The translations under genes were made by a program, and so were the position numbers. 30,931 nt of DNA from a virus (taxonomy: Duplodnaviria; Heunggongvirae; Uroviricota; Caudoviricetes). Location: IMG/VR virus record IMGVR_UViG_2651869725_000007; one strand, given 5' to 3'. Of the stretch, positions 512 to 18,052 are shown in pieces. Every line of letters starts with the position of its first letter. Positions within the stretch are counted from its first letter, which is position 1. Under the pieces are notes generated by a model. It saw only the letters and a list, made by a program, of their open reading frames with translations. It ran no database searches and had not been told where the DNA came from.

Positions 512-3069
512 CGTCCACCTCCGGAGAACAGACCACCATCGCGCATCTGCCCGGTCACAACATCCATTGCCGCCTTACGGGCTACGTCATAAACCGCCTT
601 CAGTGCCTGTGGCCCTATCTGACCGTTCGTGCCGTCGTTGTTAATCACCACATGGTTATTCTGCTCAAACGTCCCGGACGCCTGCGACCGGCTGTCCACC
701 ATGCTGCCCGGTGTACCGACATAACCGCCGGTGGCATAGCCGCGCATCAGCCGGTAAAGATTCCCCACGCCAATCCGGCTGGTTGCCTCCTTCGTGAAGA
801 CAAACTCACCACGGTGAACAATCCCCGCTGGCTCATATTTGCCGCCGGTTCCCGTAAACCCTCCGGCCGCAAAATGGAATTTCGCCGCAGCGGCCTGAAT
901 GGCTGTACCGCCTGACGCGGATGCGCCGCCACCAACAGCCCCGCCAATGGCGCTGCCGATACTCCCGACAATCCCCACCATTGCCTGCTTAAGCAGAATT
1001 TCTGTCATCATGGACAGCACGGAACGGGTGAAGCTGCGCCAGTTCTGCTCACTGCCGGTCAGCATCGCCGCCATATTCTGTGCAATACCATCAAAGGTCT
1101 GCGTGGCAGCACTTTTAACCTGCGACATACTGTCCGTGGCGCTCTCTTCCCACTCACTCCAGCCGGACCTCAGGCCTGCCATCCAGCTCCCGCGAAGCTG
1201 GTCTTCAGCCGCCCAGGTCTTTTTCTGCTCTGACATGACGTTATTCAGCGCCAGAGGATTATCGCCATACTGTTCCTTCAGGCGCTGTTCCGTGGCTTCC
1301 CGCGCTGCCTGCCGGTCAGTCAGCCCCCGGCTTTTCGCATCAATGGCGGCCCGTTTTGCCCGTTGCTGCTGTGCGAATTTATCCGCCTGCTGCGCCAGCG
1401 CATTCAGACGCTCCTGATACGTGACCTTATCGCCAAGTACAGCCAGCTGGCGTTTGTACTCCAGCGTCTCATCTTTATGCGCCAGCAGGGATTTCTCCTG
1501 TGCGGACAGCTGGCGACGTTGTGCCGCCTCCTCCAGTACCGCGAACTGACTCTCCGCCTTCCACAAATCCCGGCGCTGCTGGCTGATTTTCTCATTCGCT
1601 CCGGCATGCTTCTCCAGCATCCGGAGTTCAGCCTGAAGCGTCAGCAGGGCAGCATGAGCACTGTCTTCCTGACGATCGCCCGCAGACACCTTCACGCCGG
1701 ACTGTTTCGGCTTTTTCAGCGTCGCTTCATAATCCTTTTTCGCCGCCGCCATCAGCGTGTTGTAATCCGCCTGCAGGATTTTCCCGTCTTTCAGTGCCTT
1801 ATTCAGTTCTTCCTGACGGGCGGTATATTTCTCCAGCGGCGTCTGCAGACGTTCGTAAGCCTTCTGCGCCTCTTCGGTATATTTCAGCCGTGACGCTTCG
1901 GTATCGCTCTGCTGCTGCGCATTTTTGTCCTGTTGAGTCTGCTGCTCAGCCTTCTTTCGGGCGGCTTCAAGCGCAAGACGGGCCTTTTCACGATCATCCC
2001 AGTAACGCGCCCGCGCTTCATCGTTAACAAAATAATCATCCTTGCGCAGATTCCAGATATCGTCCGCTTTCTTAAACGCGGCCTCTGCCTTAATCAGCAT
2101 CTCCTGCGCGGTATCAGGACGACCAATATCCAGCACCGCATCCCACATGGATTTGAAGGCCCGCGCTGTCCTGTCTGCCCAGGTCTCCAGCGTGCCCATG
2201 TTCTCTTTCAGGCGGCGGGTCTGGTCATCAAACCCTTTCGTCGCGGCCTCGTTCGCCGCCTGCAATGCCCCGGCTTCATCGCCGGAACGCTGCAACTGAG
2301 CAACATACGCAATCTGCTCCGCCGTCACGTTATGGAACTGGCGCGCCATCGCTGTCAGCCCCGACGTCGGGTCAGTGGTCAGCTTCCCGAAGGCTTCAGC
2401 GACCTTGTCCACCTCCACGCCGGATGCAGAGGAGAAACGCGCCACACTCTGGCTGATGGACGCAATCTGAGCCTCACCGCTTACCCCCGCCTTAACCAGT
2501 GCGCTGAGTGACTCGCTGGTCTGGTTAAACGTCAGCCCTGCCGCCAGCCCGGCTCTGGACAGGACCAGCATACGATCTGCCGTCAGACCCGACTGATTGC
2601 CGGAAAGGACCAGCGTTTTGTTGAAATCGGACAGGGTTGAGTTGCCCTGATACCAGGCATACGCCAGCGCACCGGTCGCCACCGCCAGCGAGGTGGCCCC
2701 CACCATCGGCAGGGTGATCGCACCGGCAAGCCCCCTGAACATGGGGATAATCCCGCCGAAGGAGTCCTTCACCTGACCACCCTGTTGCAGCAGGATCAGC
2801 CACGGACTTTGCCCGCCTGCAAGCTGCGTGACCACGTCAGTGAACTGCGCAGGCAGCATACGCATGGCAGCTTTATACTGCCCGACGGAAATCCCCGCTT
2901 TCTGTGCAGCCAGCGCCTGCCGGCTCAGCGACTGTTCAACGACTGCCGCTGTTTTTTTCGCATCACTTTCCGTACCGGAAAAATGACGCCTGACTCTGGC
3001 CATCTGCTCGTCAAATCTGGCCGCATCCAGACTTAAATCAACGACCAGATCGCCTACCGGTTCAGCCAT
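508..3069 (-). CDS. H: tail tape measure protein
   Basis: 853-aa ORF, same length as lambda gpH; coiled-coil-rich middle and Gly-rich C-terminus; sits after G/T. Confidence 0.93.
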   Translation of the reverse strand: MAEPVGDLVVDLSLDAARFDEQMARVRRHFSGTESDAKKTAAVVEQSLSRQALAAQKAGISVGQYKAAMRMLPAQFTDVVTQLAGGQSPWLILLQQGGQVKDSFGGIIPMFRGLAGAITLPMVGATSLAVATGALAYAWYQGNSTLSDFNKTLVLSGNQSGLTADRMLVLSRAGLAAGLTFNQTSESLSALVKAGVSGEAQIASISQSVARFSSASGVEVDKVAEAFGKLTTDPTSGLTAMARQFHNVTAEQIAYVAQLQRSGDEAGALQAANEAATKGFDDQTRRLKENMGTLETWADRTARAFKSMWDAVLDIGRPDTAQEMLIKAEAAFKKADDIWNLRKDDYFVNDEARARYWDDREKARLALEAARKKAEQQTQQDKNAQQQSDTEASRLKYTEEAQKAYERLQTPLEKYTARQEELNKALKDGKILQADYNTLMAAAKKDYEATLKKPKQSGVKVSAGDRQEDSAHAALLTLQAELRMLEKHAGANEKISQQRRDLWKAESQFAVLEEAAQRRQLSAQEKSLLAHKDETLEYKRQLAVLGDKVTYQERLNALAQQADKFAQQQRAKRAAIDAKSRGLTDRQAAREATEQRLKEQYGDNPLALNNVMSEQKKTWAAEDQLRGSWMAGLRSGWSEWEESATDSMSQVKSAATQTFDGIAQNMAAMLTGSEQNWRSFTRSVLSMMTEILLKQAMVGIVGSIGSAIGGAVGGGASASGGTAIQAAAAKFHFAAGGFTGTGGKYEPAGIVHRGEFVFTKEATSRIGVGNLYRLMRGYATGGYVGTPGSMVDSRSQASGTFEQNNHVVINNDGTNGQIGPQALKAVYDVARKAAMDVVTGQMRDGGLFSGGGR

Positions 3070-3900
3070 ACCGGATTCCTCCTGCGATCCCTTCTGATAC
3101 TGTCATCAGCATTACGTCATCCTCCGTCATGTCCGCCACATCCGGGGAAACGGGGATAACTTCATTCCCGTCCGGACCAAAACGAACGCCTCCGGCAAGC
3201 CCTGCCGCTTTCTGCATCAGCACATCATCTTCAGGCTCTTCGTCAGCCTCACGCCGGTTCAGCAGACTGAAATCCAGCGGATGCATATCCGGATCGCTGA
3301 AAAACAGGCTGAGCACGGTGTACGTCAGCCCGGAAAAGTGCATATCCAGCAGAACATCATGAAAATAATGGGTACTGTAAAAGCGGTGCCAGTCGGCATA
3401 CTCCGTGGATGACATCCCGGCAAGCATGGCACGCCAGTCGGGTCGCCCCATCTCACGCGCCAGTTTCAGGGCAAAACTCAGCTCACCGTCGAACACTTTC
3501 CCGCAGAAACAGGCTCTGCAGGCCCGGCGTCCTCTGCCTGTTCAGGGGCATCATTCACCACAAACTCATACATACCAGACAGCCGGTACACCACGTTTTC
3601 AGCATGAGAAATTGCCTCCGCGGGCCAGGTGGTAAGCACTTCCTGCTCAATCTGTTTAACGGCTTCATTCATGGACGGCATCTGCGTCTTCTGCGGATGG
3701 TTATGCCACAGGGACATCGCCACCACAAAAGCGCCGGTTCTGATGGCGTCTTCCACAGTAAACTTCCGGTTGCTGTCTGACTCCGCCTGTTCTGCCTGCC
3801 GTTTCATCAGGGCGAGATGCTCAATACGCTGCAGGGCTGACAGTTCAGAAAGCGTGACGGTCACACCGTTATGTTCAAATGATTCGGTTTTCAGGAACAT
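3062..3900 (-). CDS. T: tail assembly chaperone G-T fusion made by programmed -1 frameshift
   Basis: T-frame ORF 3062-3496 overlaps the end of G; the slippery heptamer GGGAAAG lies at the junction (3496-3502 on the minus strand), as in lambda. Confidence 0.8.
3478..3900 (-). CDS. G: tail assembly chaperone G
   Basis: 140-aa ORF matching lambda gpG in length and sequence as recalled; directly upstream of the T frame. Confidence 0.9.
   Translation of the reverse strand: MFLKTESFEHNGVTVTLSELSALQRIEHLALMKRQAEQAESDSNRKFTVEDAIRTGAFVVAMSLWHNHPQKTQMPSMNEAVKQIEQEVLTTWPAEAISHAENVVYRLSGMYEFVVNDAPEQAEDAGPAEPVSAGKCSTVS
3496..3502 (-). other. G-T slippery heptamer (GGGAAAG) for the -1 ribosomal frameshift
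   Basis: The plus strand reads CTTTCCC at 3496-3502, at the overlap of the G and T reading frames. Confidence 0.8.
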
Positions 3901-14893: not shown

Positions 14894-15373
14894 TCACGGT
14901 ATACACTGGGTACGGATATATTCCTGTGCTCCTTCCAGTTGCTTTTGCATTGTCATCAGCCGTTCTCTGAGGGTGAAATAATCCCGTTCAGCGGTGTCTG
15001 CCAGTCGGGGGGCGGCTGCATTACCCACGCCGGGGGCGGCGGTGGCTTCACGTCCGGCCTGACAGACTGCTCTGATGCGCAACCGACGACGACCAGCGGC
15101 AATATCATCACGCAGAGCATCATTTTCAGCTTTTGCATCAGCTAACTCCCTTGAGTATTTTTCATCCAGTGCAGCAACATCGCGCTGACGCTGCTGCATG
15201 TCAGTAATGGTGGCGTTCGCCTTGCTGAGTTTTTCCTTCGCTTTATCGAGCTGGTCTTTGTAGGCGATGGCGTTATCACGATAATAATTGACTGCCCATG
15301 ACAGGCAGACGATGATGCAAATAACCAGAGCATAAATAATCGCGGCGACTCTGCTCACTGATCTATCCCCCAA
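14894..15373 (-). CDS. Rz: i-spanin Rz
   Basis: Matches lambda Rz (…[26 protein letters not shown]…[11 protein letters not shown]…); overlaps the end of R. Confidence 0.88.
14956..15138 (-). CDS. Rz1: o-spanin Rz1, lipoprotein embedded in Rz
   Basis: 60-aa ORF nested in another frame of Rz: [22 protein letters not shown]…[27 protein letters not shown]; lipobox and Pro-rich core as in lambda Rz1. Confidence 0.85.
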
Positions 15374-15888
15374 CAGGCTAATGCGCTTTCCTGGTCACGA
15401 CGAATAACCTGTCCATAGCAGTTATTTGAACGTATGCGGCAATCGCGCCCACCATCTTTTATCCACCAGCGAATCGCCTCGCATGCACCCTTACGATCAC
15501 CGGCATTCAGCCGCTTATAAAACGTCGACGGGAAACACTTACCGGGGCCAATGTTATAGGGACAAAATGACGCGATACCCGCTTTCTGTGGTTCAGTCAG
15601 TGGTACTTTAATATTGCGCTCCACCCATGCCAGCGCCTTATCACGTTCAATGGCGTTAACCAGGTCGCATTTTTCCTTCGACAGTTTCATACCGGGAAAA
15701 ACGGGTTTTCCATCCACCACCGTGGCCCCCCGACAGATGGTCCATATGCCGGAACCATCGCAGTATGCCGCTGTGTGGTTACCTTCTTTTTCGTCCAGAA
15801 ACTGGTCGAGTATTTGAGGAGCAGACGCGCCTGCAGCAATCAGCGCCAGAACGGCTGCTGACAGGCCGTATTTGATATTAGCATTCAT
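15355..15888 (-). CDS. R: SAR endolysin (GH24 lysozyme with N-terminal signal-anchor-release segment)
   Basis: 177-aa ORF with a hydrophobic N-terminus ([15 protein letters not shown]) followed by a catalytic E…D…T pattern typical of T4-type lysozymes. Confidence 0.85.
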
Positions 15889-16015
15889 GGATATTTATCA
15901 GGATTTATCAGTTTCTAATCTCTAGATATGTTAAGCACTCAGCCCGTCAGTGGTGGATACTGGCGTATGTAATAAAGGCGGGATGGCTGATTACCTCTGA
16001 TAAGGGAATGTAACT

Positions 16016-16312
16016 ATGAACGGTATAGATCCATTCAAACCAATCAGTAAGCAACTTGATGTGGTATTACCACAACTGACAAAACACAACGACCTTCTGG
16101 ATAAAGTGTTGCCTTTTTATATTGCTGTTACCGCAAAATTATCAGGTAAAACTCGAGAAGAGGTTCTCAAATATAACATGCTGGCTTTAGAAACAATTTT
16201 TGGCTCAGAAAAAGCGGGAAAATCACCCAAAGAGCTGGCAGAATCTCAATTTGCTTATATGACAAATATAAGAGTATCCGAAATCTTTGATAAGCTACCA
16301 GACATTGAATAA
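16016..16312 (+). CDS. hypothetical protein, antisense to the late operon
   Basis: 98-aa ORF with an AAGGGA ribosome-binding site and its own downstream terminator; no family recognised. Confidence 0.5.
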   Translation: MNGIDPFKPISKQLDVVLPQLTKHNDLLDKVLPFYIAVTAKLSGKTREEVLKYNMLALETIFGSEKAGKSPKELAESQFAYMTNIRVSEIFDKLPDIE

Positions 16313-16318
16313 TTTCTA

Positions 16319-16347
16319 AGCGGCAGTAATGCCGCTTTATATTTTTT
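16319..16347 (+). terminator. intrinsic terminator for the 98-aa plus-strand gene
   Basis: Hairpin AGCGGCA-GTAA-TGCCGCT followed by TTATATTTTTT. Confidence 0.5.
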
Positions 16348-16555
16348 CAGCCAAATCTCTCAAGAACTGTTTGGCATGTTTTACCGCAGTAACTTCATAA
16401 TAATCCAAACCAGCTCCTTCAAGTCGCTCAAGGTTGATGTTCAGATCAAAAATTTCACCGGCAAAACGTTCTTTGTCCTGTAACGTTAAGATTACCGTAA
16501 CTTTATTCTCAAAATTGCGGGTCCCTTTCACAATCAGTTCATAGTTTTTAGTCAT
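16337..16555 (-). CDS. hypothetical protein coupled to the holin, possibly YdfR/DUF1327-like
   Basis: 72-aa ORF whose GAGGAG ribosome-binding site lies in the holin 3' end and whose ATG is 4 nt after the holin stop. Family resemblance is from memory. Confidence 0.5.
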   Translation of the reverse strand: MTKNYELIVKGTRNFENKVTVILTLQDKERFAGEIFDLNINLERLEGAGLDYYEVTAVKHAKQFLRDLAEKI

Positions 16556-16559
16556 TGTC

Positions 16560-16775
16560 TTACTCTCCTCTCGCAGCCTTACGCCTGTCTTCTTTAATTT
16601 TGAAATAAAGGTTTGTCAGGTACGTCAGCAAGCCAAACACCAGGCTACCCAATACACCTATTGCCACCCACTGGGATGGGGAGACTTTGTCCAGCAACTG
16701 CAGTAGCCAGTATCCCGTCCCCACCGCTGAAGTGGTGTATGACACACCTGTTGTGATTTTTTCCATCTGGTACAT
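16560..16775 (-). CDS. S: class II holin / pinholin (phage 21 S-type) with dual start motif
   Basis: …[71 protein letters not shown] matches phage 21 S pattern; two Met codons 3 residues apart. Confidence 0.85.
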
Positions 16776-17184
16776 ACCCCGTCTCCCGTTATCCGGAAGC
16801 TGACAACAATAAAAAGCCACCAGTTAATTCCTGATGTCCCTGAGGCATAAACGTCATAATACCTGACTGTTATGATTGACAATAATGATAATGTTTATAT
16901 AGAAAGGTTCCCGATATGTGTTACATATCATTTCTCCACGGGGAATATCCCCACGCCAGCGCAGACTCTTTTACCCGTTCTCTTCTGCGCTGGCTCTTTT
17001 TTTATTATGCTGCTGCATTTACCTCTGGCACCAGGCTTTTTATCTCAACACCATACGTGGTACTTCGTGTAACCAATATCATAACGATTAATCGACATCG
17101 AATTTCTCCCGTGTACAGGAACAGAGTTAAAAAGCCGGAACCGGAATCAAATCACAGGATGACCATCTGCCAGTGGCTGGTCGT

Positions 17185-17212
17185 AAAAAAAAGGCCGCGC
17201 CATGCGCAGCCG
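17185..17212 (-). terminator. strong intrinsic terminator downstream of the TerB-like cassette
   Basis: On the minus strand: GGCTGCGC-ATG-GCGCGGCC followed by nine T. Confidence 0.55.
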
Positions 17213-17426
17213 GAAATAAAGGGATAACGATGATAGTTTGAGAAAAACAGAAATAACACTTTTGTGGCAAAGCATGGTGCCGGGTGCCTCCCGGTGAATT
17301 CAGCCGGTGTCACTGAACCCGCGTCGGCTTGCCTATAACATAATAAATGCTACCTACACCAGTCGCCCCTCCGCACAGGGGGATTCACCATGCAGAAGTG
17401 TTTTTAATAAACAGTAAACAAAAAAA

Positions 17427-17594
17427 TCAAGCATTATGCAGGCTGTTTCTTTTTATCACCGGCCACAGCAATACCACAATGCCGCAGACCAGCACCCCAT
17501 CCGCCAGCACCGACATGATTCTGCTGGTGAAATCCACCATCACCACCAGAAACAGCAGGAGTGCAGCCACAGTCAGGCGCAGTTTTACCGTCAC
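17427..17594 (-). CDS. putative small membrane protein (55 aa), GTG start overlapping the TerB-like stop
   Basis: Not in the ORF track. GTGA start/stop overlap and a GGAGA ribosome-binding site; product VTVKLRLTVAALLLFLVVMVDFTSRIMSVLADGVLVCGIVVLLWPVIKRNSLHNA has two hydrophobic segments. Confidence 0.4.
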   Translation of the reverse strand: MTVKLRLTVAALLLFLVVMVDFTSRIMSVLADGVLVCGIVVLLWPVIKRNSLHNA

Positions 17595-18052
17595 AGGTGA
17601 TTCTCCAGACGAAGACCCAGAACACCGGCAATCTCTTCCAGCACCTTGCGCTCTTCCGGCTCAATTTCGCCGTCTGCCTCCGCAATGGCCACCGCCACAT
17701 CCAGCACATCTTCCGCTTCACGCGTATCGTGTTTCACATCCTCGATCTCACGTAACGCCGCACGACGACCAATTTTAAAGTTCGTATCCAGCTGACCGAT
17801 AATGGTTGCGCTCATCGCATTAATTTCTGACGTAAACGCGGACAGCGCTGGCTGATTACGCAGTACCTGTTCGATCTTCGCTTTCTCGGAAGCCTCACAT
17901 TCACCATCTGCACAGGCCACCAGGTATGCGGCGTTAATCACCGCCTGTGCCAGATCGCGTTTTTCAAACTTTTTAATTTCCGTTGCCGCTCTGCGGGCTT
18001 TTTTTACCAAAAATACCAAACATCGTGACGTTCCTTTGGGTGGGTGAGCCAA
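17591..18052 (-). CDS. TerB-domain (tellurite-resistance TerB-like) protein
   Basis: 153-aa ORF with two TerB-type repeats: …AAYLVACADGECEASEKAKIEQVL… and …VAVAIAEADGEIEPEERKVLEEIAGVLGL…. Confidence 0.55.
   Translation of the reverse strand: MAHPPKGTSRCLVFLVKKARRAATEIKKFEKRDLAQAVINAAYLVACADGECEASEKAKIEQVLRNQPALSAFTSEINAMSATIIGQLDTNFKIGRRAALREIEDVKHDTREAEDVLDVAVAIAEADGEIEPEERKVLEEIAGVLGLRLENHL

What the first reader, a model, noticed from the sequence alone, without database searches (positions are those of the whole stretch)
16016..16555. Two-gene insertion between pinholin and SAR endolysin, one gene antisense to the late operon
Holin and endolysin genes are normally adjacent in lambdoid lysis cassettes. 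Here about 670 bp separates the holin stop (16560) from the endolysin start (15888). The gap holds a 72-aa ORF translationally coupled to the holin and a convergent 98-aa ORF on the opposite strand with its own ribosome-binding site and terminator (16319-16347). Neither looks like a holin, antiholin, endolysin or spanin. A self-contained gene antisense to late transcription could be expressed in the lysogen, which would fit superinfection exclusion, defence or lysis timing. A 9-bp direct repeat (ATTTATCAG twice, 15893-15911) sits just upstream of the endolysin start.
Basis: partly seen in the sequence, partly recalled or inferred. Interest (0 to 1): 0.6.

Follow-up and report, generated by a model that had tools for sequence, protein, structure and literature searches.

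The report
Convergent moron pair with shared leader
The gap between the holin and endolysin genes holds a mobile two-gene accessory module (a "moron" pair, as annotated in phages HK022 and ES18) of unknown function, and its antisense gene has a promoter and a folded RNA leader that many unrelated small prophage genes share.

Summary
A 671-bp gap (15889-16559) separates an S21-type holin from a SAR endolysin and holds a 72-aa ORF on the late strand and a convergent 98-aa ORF with its own RBS and terminator.

The 72-aa ORF ("B") is not novel. It is the N-terminal domain of DUF1327/YdfR, a gene that often sits between S and R in lambdoid phages. The 98-aa ORF ("A") belongs to a tiny orphan family under strong purifying selection.

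A and a small late-strand partner travel together. In 16 of 17 distinct contexts A is convergent with a 72-99 aa ORF, at many late-operon junctions in both lysis and tail modules. That argues against a lysis-specific role.

This is the moron architecture already annotated in HK022 (gp22/gp23) and ES18 (gp24/gp25). Its function is unknown.

One thing appears to be undescribed. A's promoter and about 77-nt 5' leader are conserved upstream of at least 22 unrelated small ORF families in at least 120 viral contigs. The leader is a covarying stem-loop with a possible pseudoknot beside the Shine-Dalgarno sequence, and Rfam has no match to it.

Expression in the lysogen and the biochemical function remain inferences.

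The parts
16560..16775 (-). S21-type class II holin (pinholin) with an MYQM dual start; upstream neighbour of the module, given for context
   Evidence: Pfam PF04971, 113 bits; PHROG holin
16337..16555 (-). Gene B: 72-aa protein consisting only of the DUF1327/YdfR N-terminal domain. It lies on the late strand, 4 nt after the holin stop. It is mosaic: nt 1-120 resemble E. coli ydfR and the 3' end resembles the short cassette-type B
   Evidence: Pfam PF07041, 92.3 bits, profile positions 1-72 of 93; alignments; sliding identity; AF2 model with three strands and a helix, pLDDT 81.6; dN/dS 0.15
16318..16347 (+). Intrinsic terminator of gene A (stem AAGCGGCA/TGCCGCTT followed by a T-run). It overlaps the stop codon and last codons of gene B
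   Evidence: Terminator scan; conserved with the Cronobacter copy
16016..16312 (+). Gene A: 98-aa, four-helix cytoplasmic protein of an orphan family, antisense to the late operon
   Evidence: phrog_25324 only; 16 clusters among 5.8 billion proteins; 4 representatives among 1.84 billion; AF2 pLDDT 87.8; no fold match in PDB or BFVD; dN/dS 0.08
15939..16015 (+). Conserved structured 5' leader of gene A. P1 pairs 15939-15944 (TCAGCC) with 15985-15990 (GGCTGA). P2 is the hairpin 15945-15952 with 15958-15965. The conserved block GGGATGGCTGATTACCTCTG spans 15980-15999. The SD (AAGGG) is at 16003-16007
   Evidence: Alignments; RNAalifold predicts P1+P2; pair counts; covariance model finds one copy per locus; no Rfam match
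15905..15932 (+). Putative sigma-70 promoter of gene A: -35 TTATCA (15905-15910), 16-nt spacer, -10 TATGTT (15927-15932). The predicted transcription start lies at about 15937-15941, at the foot of P1
   Evidence: Across 83 distinct leaders, T/A/T at -12/-11/-7 relative to the T of TCAGCC are 94/96/92% conserved. The generic promoter scan did not call this site
15893..15911 (+). ATTTATCAG direct repeat, which is the left junction and -35 block of the cassette. The first copy also lies upstream of the endolysin start in cassette-free mEp460
   Evidence: the same block with one mismatch occurs in Perceval before a different cargo; it is related to the class-wide block AATATCAGGATGT
15355..15888 (-). 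SAR endolysin; downstream neighbour of the module, given for context
   Evidence: Pfam PF00959, 81 bits

Best explanation
The gap holds a mobile two-gene moron module.

Gene B is the YdfR/DUF1327 N-terminal domain on its own. It is read with the lysis genes from the Q-dependent late transcript and is closely coupled to the holin.

Gene A is an autonomous transcription unit on the opposite strand. It consists of a sigma-70 promoter, a structured 5' leader that starts at the transcription start, an SD, a 98-aa ORF and an intrinsic terminator that ends inside the last codons of B.

The module entered an S21-ydfR-R21 lysis cassette by recombination. The right joint lies inside ydfR, at about codons 35-45. 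The left joint lies in the short TATCAGGAT block just upstream of the endolysin start. It replaced the ydfR C-terminal tail and the spacer.

Inferred, not shown:
- A is made in the lysogen, independently of Q.
- A is shut down when antiterminated late transcription runs through it head-on, while B is made only late.
- Neither protein is part of the lysis machinery.
- A is an accessory (lysogenic-conversion or host/phage-interference) protein.
- B acts on RNA metabolism. The YdfR N-terminal 72 residues are reported to bind the RNase E catalytic half and to co-purify RNA.
- The conserved leader gives A, and many other cargo genes, a common post-transcriptional control or mRNA-stabilising 5' end.
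For: Identity of the parts:
- Pfam and PHROG assignments.
- mEp460 and PhiR47_1 have holin-ydfR(104 aa)-endolysin with no plus-strand gene.
- B is mosaic: 90-97% identical to mEp460 ydfR over nt 1-120, then 50-60%, while the 3' end and terminator match the Cronobacter short B.
- The cassette is 35-38% GC against about 50% in the flanks.

The pair moves as a unit:
- A 609-bp block is shared with Cronobacter in another context.
- In 16 of 17 distinct A contexts a 72-99 aa late-strand ORF ends 2-29 bp from the A stop. The junctions are S|R, after Rz, Q|holin, TMP|M, M|L and I|J.

A is autonomous:
- Terminator.
- Conserved -10 element placed so that transcription starts at the foot of P1.
- Leader helices with compensatory changes and plus-strand G.U pairs.
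- About 100 of 119 leader cassettes are antisense to their large neighbours.

The kind is already annotated: HK022 gp22/gp23 'moron gene product', and ES18 gp24 (DUF1327) with gp25 'possible moron', each with an annotated terminator.

B biochemistry: PMC13232886 reports that YdfR residues 1-72 suffice for a BACTH interaction with the RNase E N-terminal half and RNase G, that Rne1-598 co-purifies, and that RNA co-purifies.

Both genes are under purifying selection.
Against: - There are no expression data, so the promoter and transcription start are sequence inferences. The generic promoter scan did not call the site in the window.
- The window copy lacks the minus-strand terminator found upstream of most cassettes of the class. 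One P3 position is mismatched in it.
- Single-sequence folding energy of the window leader is no better than shuffles (z = -0.01). The structure therefore rests on covariation alone.
- A has no homologue or fold match of known function, so its role is a guess.
- One A locus (L048) has no B partner. Close A relatives pair with two B types that show no detectable homology to each other. Any A-B functional coupling is therefore uncertain.
- YdfR overproduction changed few transcripts in the cited paper.
Confidence: 0.7

Rival explanations
1. A and B form a toxin-antitoxin-like or abortive-infection pair. A is made in the lysogen and neutralises or guards B, a late-expressed effector that binds RNase E. 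The balance flips on induction or superinfection.
For: - Tight convergent pairing in 16 of 17 contexts, down to 38% A identity.
- All A-linked DUF1327 genes are the short 71-73 aa form.
- The opposite-strand layout predicts reciprocal expression.
- B's family binds an essential RNase.
Against: - No hit to any PADLOC model or TA family.
- Long YdfR forms occur without A in many phages.
- Near-identical leaders and close A relatives pair with either B1 or B2, which show no detectable homology.
- L048 has A alone.
- About half of the leader cassettes of the wider class have no small partner.
- The cited paper highlights growth arrest only for YegJ, not for YdfR.
Confidence: 0.12
2. The pair regulates lysis. 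For example, B or A tunes pinholin triggering or SAR-endolysin release and so sets lysis timing.
For: The pair lies between S21 and R21, and B is closely coupled to the holin. DUF1327 genes recur between S and R in lambdoid phages.
Against: - Neither protein has a transmembrane segment or resembles a holin, antiholin, endolysin or spanin.
- The same A family, with DUF1327-type or B2-type partners, sits between tail genes (TMP|M, M|L, I|J) in Serratia, Escherichia and other prophages and in ES18.
- A is on the wrong strand to be co-expressed with lysis genes.
Confidence: 0.05
3. The working product is antisense transcription or RNA rather than protein A. A promoter firing against the late operon insulates the endolysin and spanin genes from leaky read-through in the lysogen, or the transcript acts as an antisense RNA on the 3' end of B.
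For: - The layout is convergent, and the terminator overlaps the end of B.
- Cassettes of the class usually also carry a minus-strand terminator.
- The leader is more conserved than the cargo.
Against: - A is under strong purifying selection: dN/dS is 0.08, and in distant pairs synonymous sites are saturated while pN is about 0.2.
- Every cassette keeps an SD and an intact ORF of 63-100 aa.
- This rival could hold alongside the main explanation.
Confidence: 0.08

Closest known systems
HK022 gp22/gp23 ('srb protein') moron pair between gpI and gpJ, as annotated in NC_002166
   Same: A small antisense gene is preceded by the same leader (87.8 bits to model R1). It is convergent with, and overlaps, a small late-strand ORF inside the late operon, and it is annotated 'moron gene product'.
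   Different: The cargo protein belongs to another family. hhalign of A against the gp23-type alignment gives no homology. The partner is not DUF1327, and the location is the tail module rather than the lysis cassette. No function for it turned up in the papers searched.
ES18 gp24 (DUF1327) / gp25 'possible moron' pair between gpM and gpL (NC_006949)
   Same: A DUF1327 gene on the late strand is convergent with an antisense small gene carrying the same leader (76.2 bits). Terminators are annotated for both genes.
   Different: gp25 is a different cargo family (95 aa), gp24 is 86 aa, and the pair sits in the tail module. In ES18 the terminator annotated for gp24 lies beyond gp25, whereas the window copy has no such minus-strand terminator.
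YdfR of the Qin prophage, and ydfR genes of mEp460, PhiR47_1 and Perceval (Pfam DUF1327)
   Same: B aligns with the N-terminal 72 residues at 60-97% identity and occupies the same slot after the holin. The 72-residue N-terminal part is the fragment reported to bind RNase E and RNase G.
   Different: B lacks the variable 12-46 aa C-terminal tail seen in the 84-118 aa relatives. RNase E binding has not been shown for this protein.
Classical lysogen-expressed morons: HK97 gp15, and lambda bor, which lies antisense next to the lysis genes
   Same: Extra DNA absent from relatives, with its own promoter and terminator and atypical GC content, inside or beside the late operon (PMC3594210; a Bor homologue is annotated antisense beside Rz in Perceval).
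   Different: Those products are membrane proteins or lipoproteins with known exclusion or serum-resistance phenotypes (established knowledge). A is a soluble helical protein with no known function, and those genes were not examined here for the shared leader.

Membership tests
Moron (Juhala et al. 2000, as summarised in PMC3594210) | Extra DNA absent at the same position in related phages | tested here: met
   mEp460 and PhiR47_1 have holin-ydfR-endolysin with no plus-strand gene. The cassette is in 62 of 5426 E. coli genomes and 1 phage record.
Moron (Juhala et al. 2000, as summarised in PMC3594210) | Own promoter | tested here: inconclusive
   A -10 element is conserved across the class, with T/A/T at 94/96/92%. 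The window has TATGTT at 15927-15932 with TTATCA 16 nt upstream. The generic consensus scan did not call it, and there are no transcription data.
Moron (Juhala et al. 2000, as summarised in PMC3594210) | Own terminator | tested here: met
   An 8-bp stem with 5 GC pairs followed by TATATTTTTT at 16318-16347.
Moron (Juhala et al. 2000, as summarised in PMC3594210) | GC content differing from the surrounding genes | tested here: met
   GC is 35.5-38% across 16000-16500, against 50-52% in the endolysin and holin.
Moron (Juhala et al. 2000, as summarised in PMC3594210) | Expressed from the repressed prophage | not testable with these tools
   This needs strand-specific RNA-seq or a reporter in a lysogen.
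DUF1327 / YdfR (PF07041), for gene B | Score above the Pfam gathering threshold | tested here: met
   92.3 bits against a cut-off of 25, E = 2.2e-26.
DUF1327 / YdfR (PF07041), for gene B | Full-length architecture: N-domain plus C-terminal tail, 84-118 aa | tested here: not met
   B covers profile positions 1-72 of 93 only. All seven distinct A-linked DUF1327 partners are 71-73 aa.
DUF1327 / YdfR (PF07041), for gene B | Binds the RNase E N-terminal half and co-purifies RNA | not testable with these tools
   Reported for K-12 YdfR residues 1-72 (PMC13232886). Not shown for this protein.
HK022 gp23-type cargo family, for gene A | Detectable sequence homology | tested here: not met
   hhalign probability is 0.7%. 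Against the ES18 gp25-type and C4 alignment it is 0.5%.
Known anti-phage defence or toxin-antitoxin proteins | Match to a PADLOC or Pfam model of a defence or TA component | tested here: not met
   PADLOC gives no family for A or B. Pfam gives none for A.
Lysis proteins (holin, antiholin, endolysin, spanin) | Family match, or transmembrane, SAR or lipobox features | tested here: not met
   No lysis-family hit. The models are a soluble four-helix protein and a small protein of three strands and a helix.
Any curated RNA family (Rfam 15), for the leader | Covariance-model match | tested here: not met
   No match at E <= 1 over window 15500-17500, nor in nine other leader-carrying loci.

The most novel reading that the evidence does not exclude
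The roughly 77-nt leader is an undescribed class of cis-regulatory RNA. It has an invariant P1, a covarying P2 and a probable P3 pseudoknot that contains an anti-SD-like GAUUACCUCU next to the true SD, and it begins at the transcription start. With its promoter it forms a standard expression platform that puts a large, fast-turning-over pool of unrelated small prophage proteins under one common signal. That signal could be a host RNA-binding protein such as CsrA (three GGA motifs), a ligand, or RNase E-dependent decay. At least 22 cargo families are involved, and nearly all are antisense inside late operons. Gene A and the YdfR-type partner are then one instance of a general antisense-cargo and late-strand-partner design.
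Probability: 0.4. Interest if true: 0.75.

Novelty: new member of a known kind. Interest (0 to 1): 0.5.

Why it matters
As submitted, the finding is an ordinary if rare moron pair and does not change how phage 21-type lysis is understood.

Its value is as an entry point.
- The promoter and leader of the antisense gene give a sequence handle (covariance model R1, or the pattern TCAGCC...ATGGCTGATNAMCTCT). It finds many uncharacterised, often unannotated small prophage genes, such as a 79-aa ORF in LF82 phage Perceval.
- Nearly all of these genes lie antisense within late operons. They are candidates for lysogen-expressed interference, defence or host-modulation factors.
- A shared structured leader implies a shared regulatory input, which can be tested with reporters and compensatory mutants.
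- The recurrent pairing with a YdfR-type domain, reported to bind RNase E, offers a concrete route to the function of DUF1327.

Tried and rejected
1. A as a helix-turn-helix regulator, suggested by the AKLSGKTREEV motif. The AF2 four-helix model has no PDB or BFVD match (best E = 1.2 and 2.0). The profile search of PDB sequences gave only E = 0.098 to Reg576. Dropped.
2. B2-type partners (93-99 aa, weak phrog_11851 hits) as distant DUF1327 relatives. hhalign probability was 0.2% and 11.8%, in inconsistent registers. Not supported.
3. Helical cargo families, including A, as one superfamily sharing a 'phi-phi-AKL-x4-R-x2-phi-phi' motif seen by eye. hhalign of A against C0, A against C4/C7, and C0 against C4/C7 all gave under 1%. 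Not supported.
4. The conserved block upstream of the promoter (ACTGTTTGAATATCAGG) as a LexA box. Read by eye, the CTG...CAG spacing is 9 nt, not 10. Rejected.
5. Thermodynamic support for the leader fold. z-scores ranged from -0.01 to -2.26, which is unremarkable.
6. Perceval as a decayed relic of the cassette. This was corrected: it has a divergent but intact leader (23.5 bits) and an unannotated 79-aa ORF related to HK022 gp23.
7. tblastn of a B2 protein against the phage collection found no match.
8. A looser pattern scan for unbiased P3 variants returned mostly chance hits. Only 6 of 48 new loci passed the covariance model.
9. The afdb50 fold library was unavailable. The ES18 genome paper was not held under the PMC id I tried, and the meaning of 'srb' in HK022 was not found.

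Full report
**Observation.** The lysis cassette lies on the minus strand. It comprises an S21-type holin (16560-16775, 71 aa with an MYQM dual start; PF04971, 113 bits), a SAR endolysin (15355-15888; PF00959), Rz (14894-15373; PF03245) and an embedded Rz1 ORF. The holin stop and the endolysin start are 671 bp apart. The gap holds a 72-aa minus-strand ORF (16337-16555, here 'B') that starts 4 nt after the holin stop behind a GAGGAG. It also holds a convergent 98-aa plus-strand ORF (16016-16312, here 'A') with AAGGG 8 nt upstream and a hairpin plus T-run at 16318-16347. The ATTTATCAG repeat at 15893-15911 is real and non-random. The window is 99.3% identical to phage Evi (LR597642), where both ORFs are annotated 'hypothetical protein'.

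**What the two genes are.** B is a DUF1327/YdfR-family protein (PF07041, 92.3 bits, E = 2e-26), but it covers only profile positions 1-72 of 93. Relatives are mostly 84-118 aa, with a conserved 70-aa N-domain and variable C-terminal tails. A ydfR gene between S and R is common in lambdoid phages such as mEp460, PhiR47_1, Tritos and Perceval.

- The AF2 model of B has three strands and a C-terminal helix (pLDDT 81.6). It gives only weak fold matches (E >= 0.24).
- A 2026 paper reports that the first 72 residues of K-12 YdfR suffice for a two-hybrid interaction with the RNase E N-terminal half and with RNase G. It also reports that Rne1-598 co-purifies with YdfR, that RNA co-purifies, and that overproduction changes few transcripts (PMC13232886).
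- A has no Pfam or PADLOC hit and matches only phrog_25324, of unknown function.
- The A family is tiny: 16 clusters among 5.8 billion proteins and 4 representatives among 1.84 billion, all from Enterobacterales (Escherichia, Cronobacter, Serratia, Buttiauxella, Pantoea) or metagenomes.
- A models as a confident four-helix protein (pLDDT 87.8) with no match in PDB or BFVD.
- Both genes are under purifying selection, with dN/dS of 0.08 for A and 0.15 for B.

**How it got there.** mEp460 and PhiR47_1 have holin-ydfR(104 aa)-endolysin with no plus-strand gene. Along B, identity to mEp460 ydfR is 90-97% over nt 1-120 and then falls to 50-60%. The 3' end and the terminator instead match the short B of a Cronobacter prophage. 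The window shares a 609-bp block (15939-16547, 79% identity) with that prophage. The block runs from A's leader through almost all of B, in a different neighbourhood downstream of an Rz fragment. Homology to mEp460 resumes at ATCCTGATAAATATCC-ATG in front of the endolysin. The event was therefore a replacement by recombination, with one joint inside ydfR and the other in a short shared block. The cassette is 35-38% GC against about 50% in the flanks. It occurs in 62 of 5426 complete E. coli genomes, nearly all at 99% identity or more, and in one phage record.

**The pair is a mobile unit and is not specific to lysis.** I examined 17 distinct A-family contexts. In every one, A is antisense to its neighbours. 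In 16 of them a small late-strand ORF ends 2-29 bp from A's stop.

- Seven partners are 71-73 aa proteins consisting of the DUF1327 N-domain alone. Their identity to the window's B falls as low as 31%.
- Nine partners belong to a second family of about 93-99 aa (one copy is cut by a contig end), with weak phrog_11851 hits and no detectable homology to DUF1327.
- The pair sits at S|R, after Rz, Q|holin, TerB|holin, TMP|M, M|L and I|J.
- One locus (L048) has A alone, next to gpI.
- Close A relatives with near-identical leaders pair with either partner type, so the modules reshuffle.

Presence in tail clusters argues against a lysis-specific function.

**A conserved promoter and leader shared by many cargo genes.** Upstream of A, sequence is conserved even where A identity is only 38%. 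The leader has these parts.

- P1 (TCAGCC/GGCTGA) is essentially invariant.
- P2 is an 8-bp hairpin in which six pairs show compensatory changes among the 18 A-linked leaders. RNAalifold predicts P1+P2 on its own.
- After P2 come a conserved block GGGATGGCTGATTACCTCTG, the SD and the ATG.
- A covariance model finds exactly one copy per A locus and none in cassette-free relatives.
- Rfam 15 has no match.

Downstream of these leaders lie at least 22 BLAST clusters of ORFs, mostly 63-100 aa, and only about 4 of 119 are A. About 100 of the 119 are antisense to the large neighbouring ORFs. Roughly half have a convergent small partner, some of them DUF1327-like or B2-like. None has a known function, and only DUF1883 is a named family.

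On 83 distinct leaders, 97.8% of cells pair and all eight P2 pairs show double-sided changes. One position is U-G in 40 sequences, which pairs only in the plus-strand RNA. This alignment was fitted to the model, and P1 was fixed by my search pattern, so the covariation in P2 is the informative part.

A further helix, P3 (AGAGG/CCUCU), would enclose the 3' strand of P1 and so form a pseudoknot. Support for it is mixed.

- Compensatory variants occur in L018/L037 (GAGAG/CUCUC), L009/L017 (CCGA/UCGG), L177/L198, L217 and Perceval (UGGGG/CCCCA).
- Mismatches occur in L180, L201 and the window.

A -10 element lies at -12 to -7 relative to the T of TCAGCC, with T 94%, A 96% and T 92%. That places the transcription start at the foot of P1. 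Most cassettes also carry a conserved block (ACTGTTTGAATATCAGGATGT) and a minus-strand terminator further upstream. The window copy lacks that terminator.

**Known examples.** The same leader precedes HK022 gp23 ('srb protein; moron gene product'), which is convergent with gp22 between gpI and gpJ. It also precedes ES18 gp25 ('possible moron'), which is convergent with gp24, a DUF1327 protein, between gpM and gpL. It precedes HK633 gp65 as well. An STEC prophage has holin, a 213-aa gene, DUF1327 (75 aa), an antisense 95-aa gene, then lysozyme. Phage Perceval of LF82 has the window's promoter and junction block, including the repeat with one mismatch. There it lies in front of a divergent leader and an unannotated 79-aa ORF related to HK022 gp23, convergent with a long ydfR. 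The 9-bp repeat is therefore part of a shared promoter and junction block, not a fresh target duplication. In E. coli genomes, blastn finds the leader in about 124 of 5426.

**Mechanism: shown and inferred.**

Shown:
- the gene content and boundaries of the module
- its mosaic origin
- its mobility as a pair
- selection on both ORFs
- a conserved promoter-like element, a covarying leader structure and a terminator

Inferred:
- A is transcribed from its own promoter in the lysogen and silenced by head-on late transcription.
- B is made late, with the holin.
- The 5'-terminal stem-loop stabilises or regulates the mRNA.
- B acts through RNase E or RNA.
- A is an accessory or interference factor.

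The leader contains three GGA motifs: in the P2 loop, in GGGAUGG and in the SD. It also contains a GAUUACCUCU stretch that resembles the 16S anti-SD. Both are leads from my reading of the sequence and were not tested.

**Rival explanations.** Three rivals remain.

- A TA-like or Abi-like A-B pair has a probability of 0.12. The pairing favours it. Against it are partner swapping, A-less ydfR genes, one B-less A locus and the lack of any TA or defence hit.
- A lysis-timing role has a probability of 0.05. The tail-module locations and A's strand contradict it.
- An RNA-only function for the antisense unit has a probability of 0.08. The dN/dS of 0.08 contradicts it, although it could coexist with the main explanation.

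**Verdict.** The finding is a real but ordinary instance of a known kind. It is a moron pair carrying a new, rare cargo family. The shared structured leader is the part worth following up.

Noticed in passing
window 17239-17419 (-): Strong Rfam match to the sRNA STnc100 (RF02076): 116.8 bits against a gathering score of 47, covering the full model. It lies upstream of the holin in the Q-to-S interval.
   Followed up: no
window 17591-18052 (-): A 153-aa TerB-domain protein (PF05099, 55.8 bits) is encoded between Q and the holin. A similar TerB ORF lies just upstream of the B2-A pair in Buttiauxella locus L017 (5330-5761).
   Followed up: partly
L176 (phage Perceval OV696612) 2507-2833, plus strand of the locus: An unannotated 79-aa ORF (MQKEVFINITADCSS...) lies behind a divergent copy of the leader, between ydfR and the endolysin of an LF82 prophage. 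It is distantly related to HK022 gp23. Published LF82 RNA-seq could show whether it is expressed in the lysogen.
   Followed up: partly
L009 about 3851-3880; also L008, L013, L031; class-wide at -73 to -55 relative to TCAGCC: Most cassettes carry a minus-strand hairpin (GCCACC-TTCG-GGTGGC) plus T7, lying directly in front of the next late gene's ATG (gpM). This is a terminator inside the late operon that only antiterminated transcription should pass. It is absent from the window copy.
   Followed up: partly
L120 (314-374 and 4438-4499) and L060 (3173-3256 and 12155-12233): Two leader cassettes with different cargo genes lie in one viral contig, so a single prophage can carry several members of the class.
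   Followed up: no
window 16915-17005 (+) and L172 4621-4709 (+): Weak sub-threshold Rfam hits to the EHEC sRNA Esr41 (28 and 31.9 bits against a gathering score of 102). They lie at equivalent positions upstream of the holin in two unrelated prophages. This may be a diverged relative or chance.
   Followed up: no
L055, L060, L077 and about 30 other leader loci (partner cluster P0): A family of small coiled-coil ORFs starting MTLEQRV..LE (51-90 aa) lies on the late strand. Their 3' ends overlap the antisense cargo genes by about 8-29 nt. It is the commonest partner type in the wider class (phrog_38241, unknown function).
   Followed up: partly
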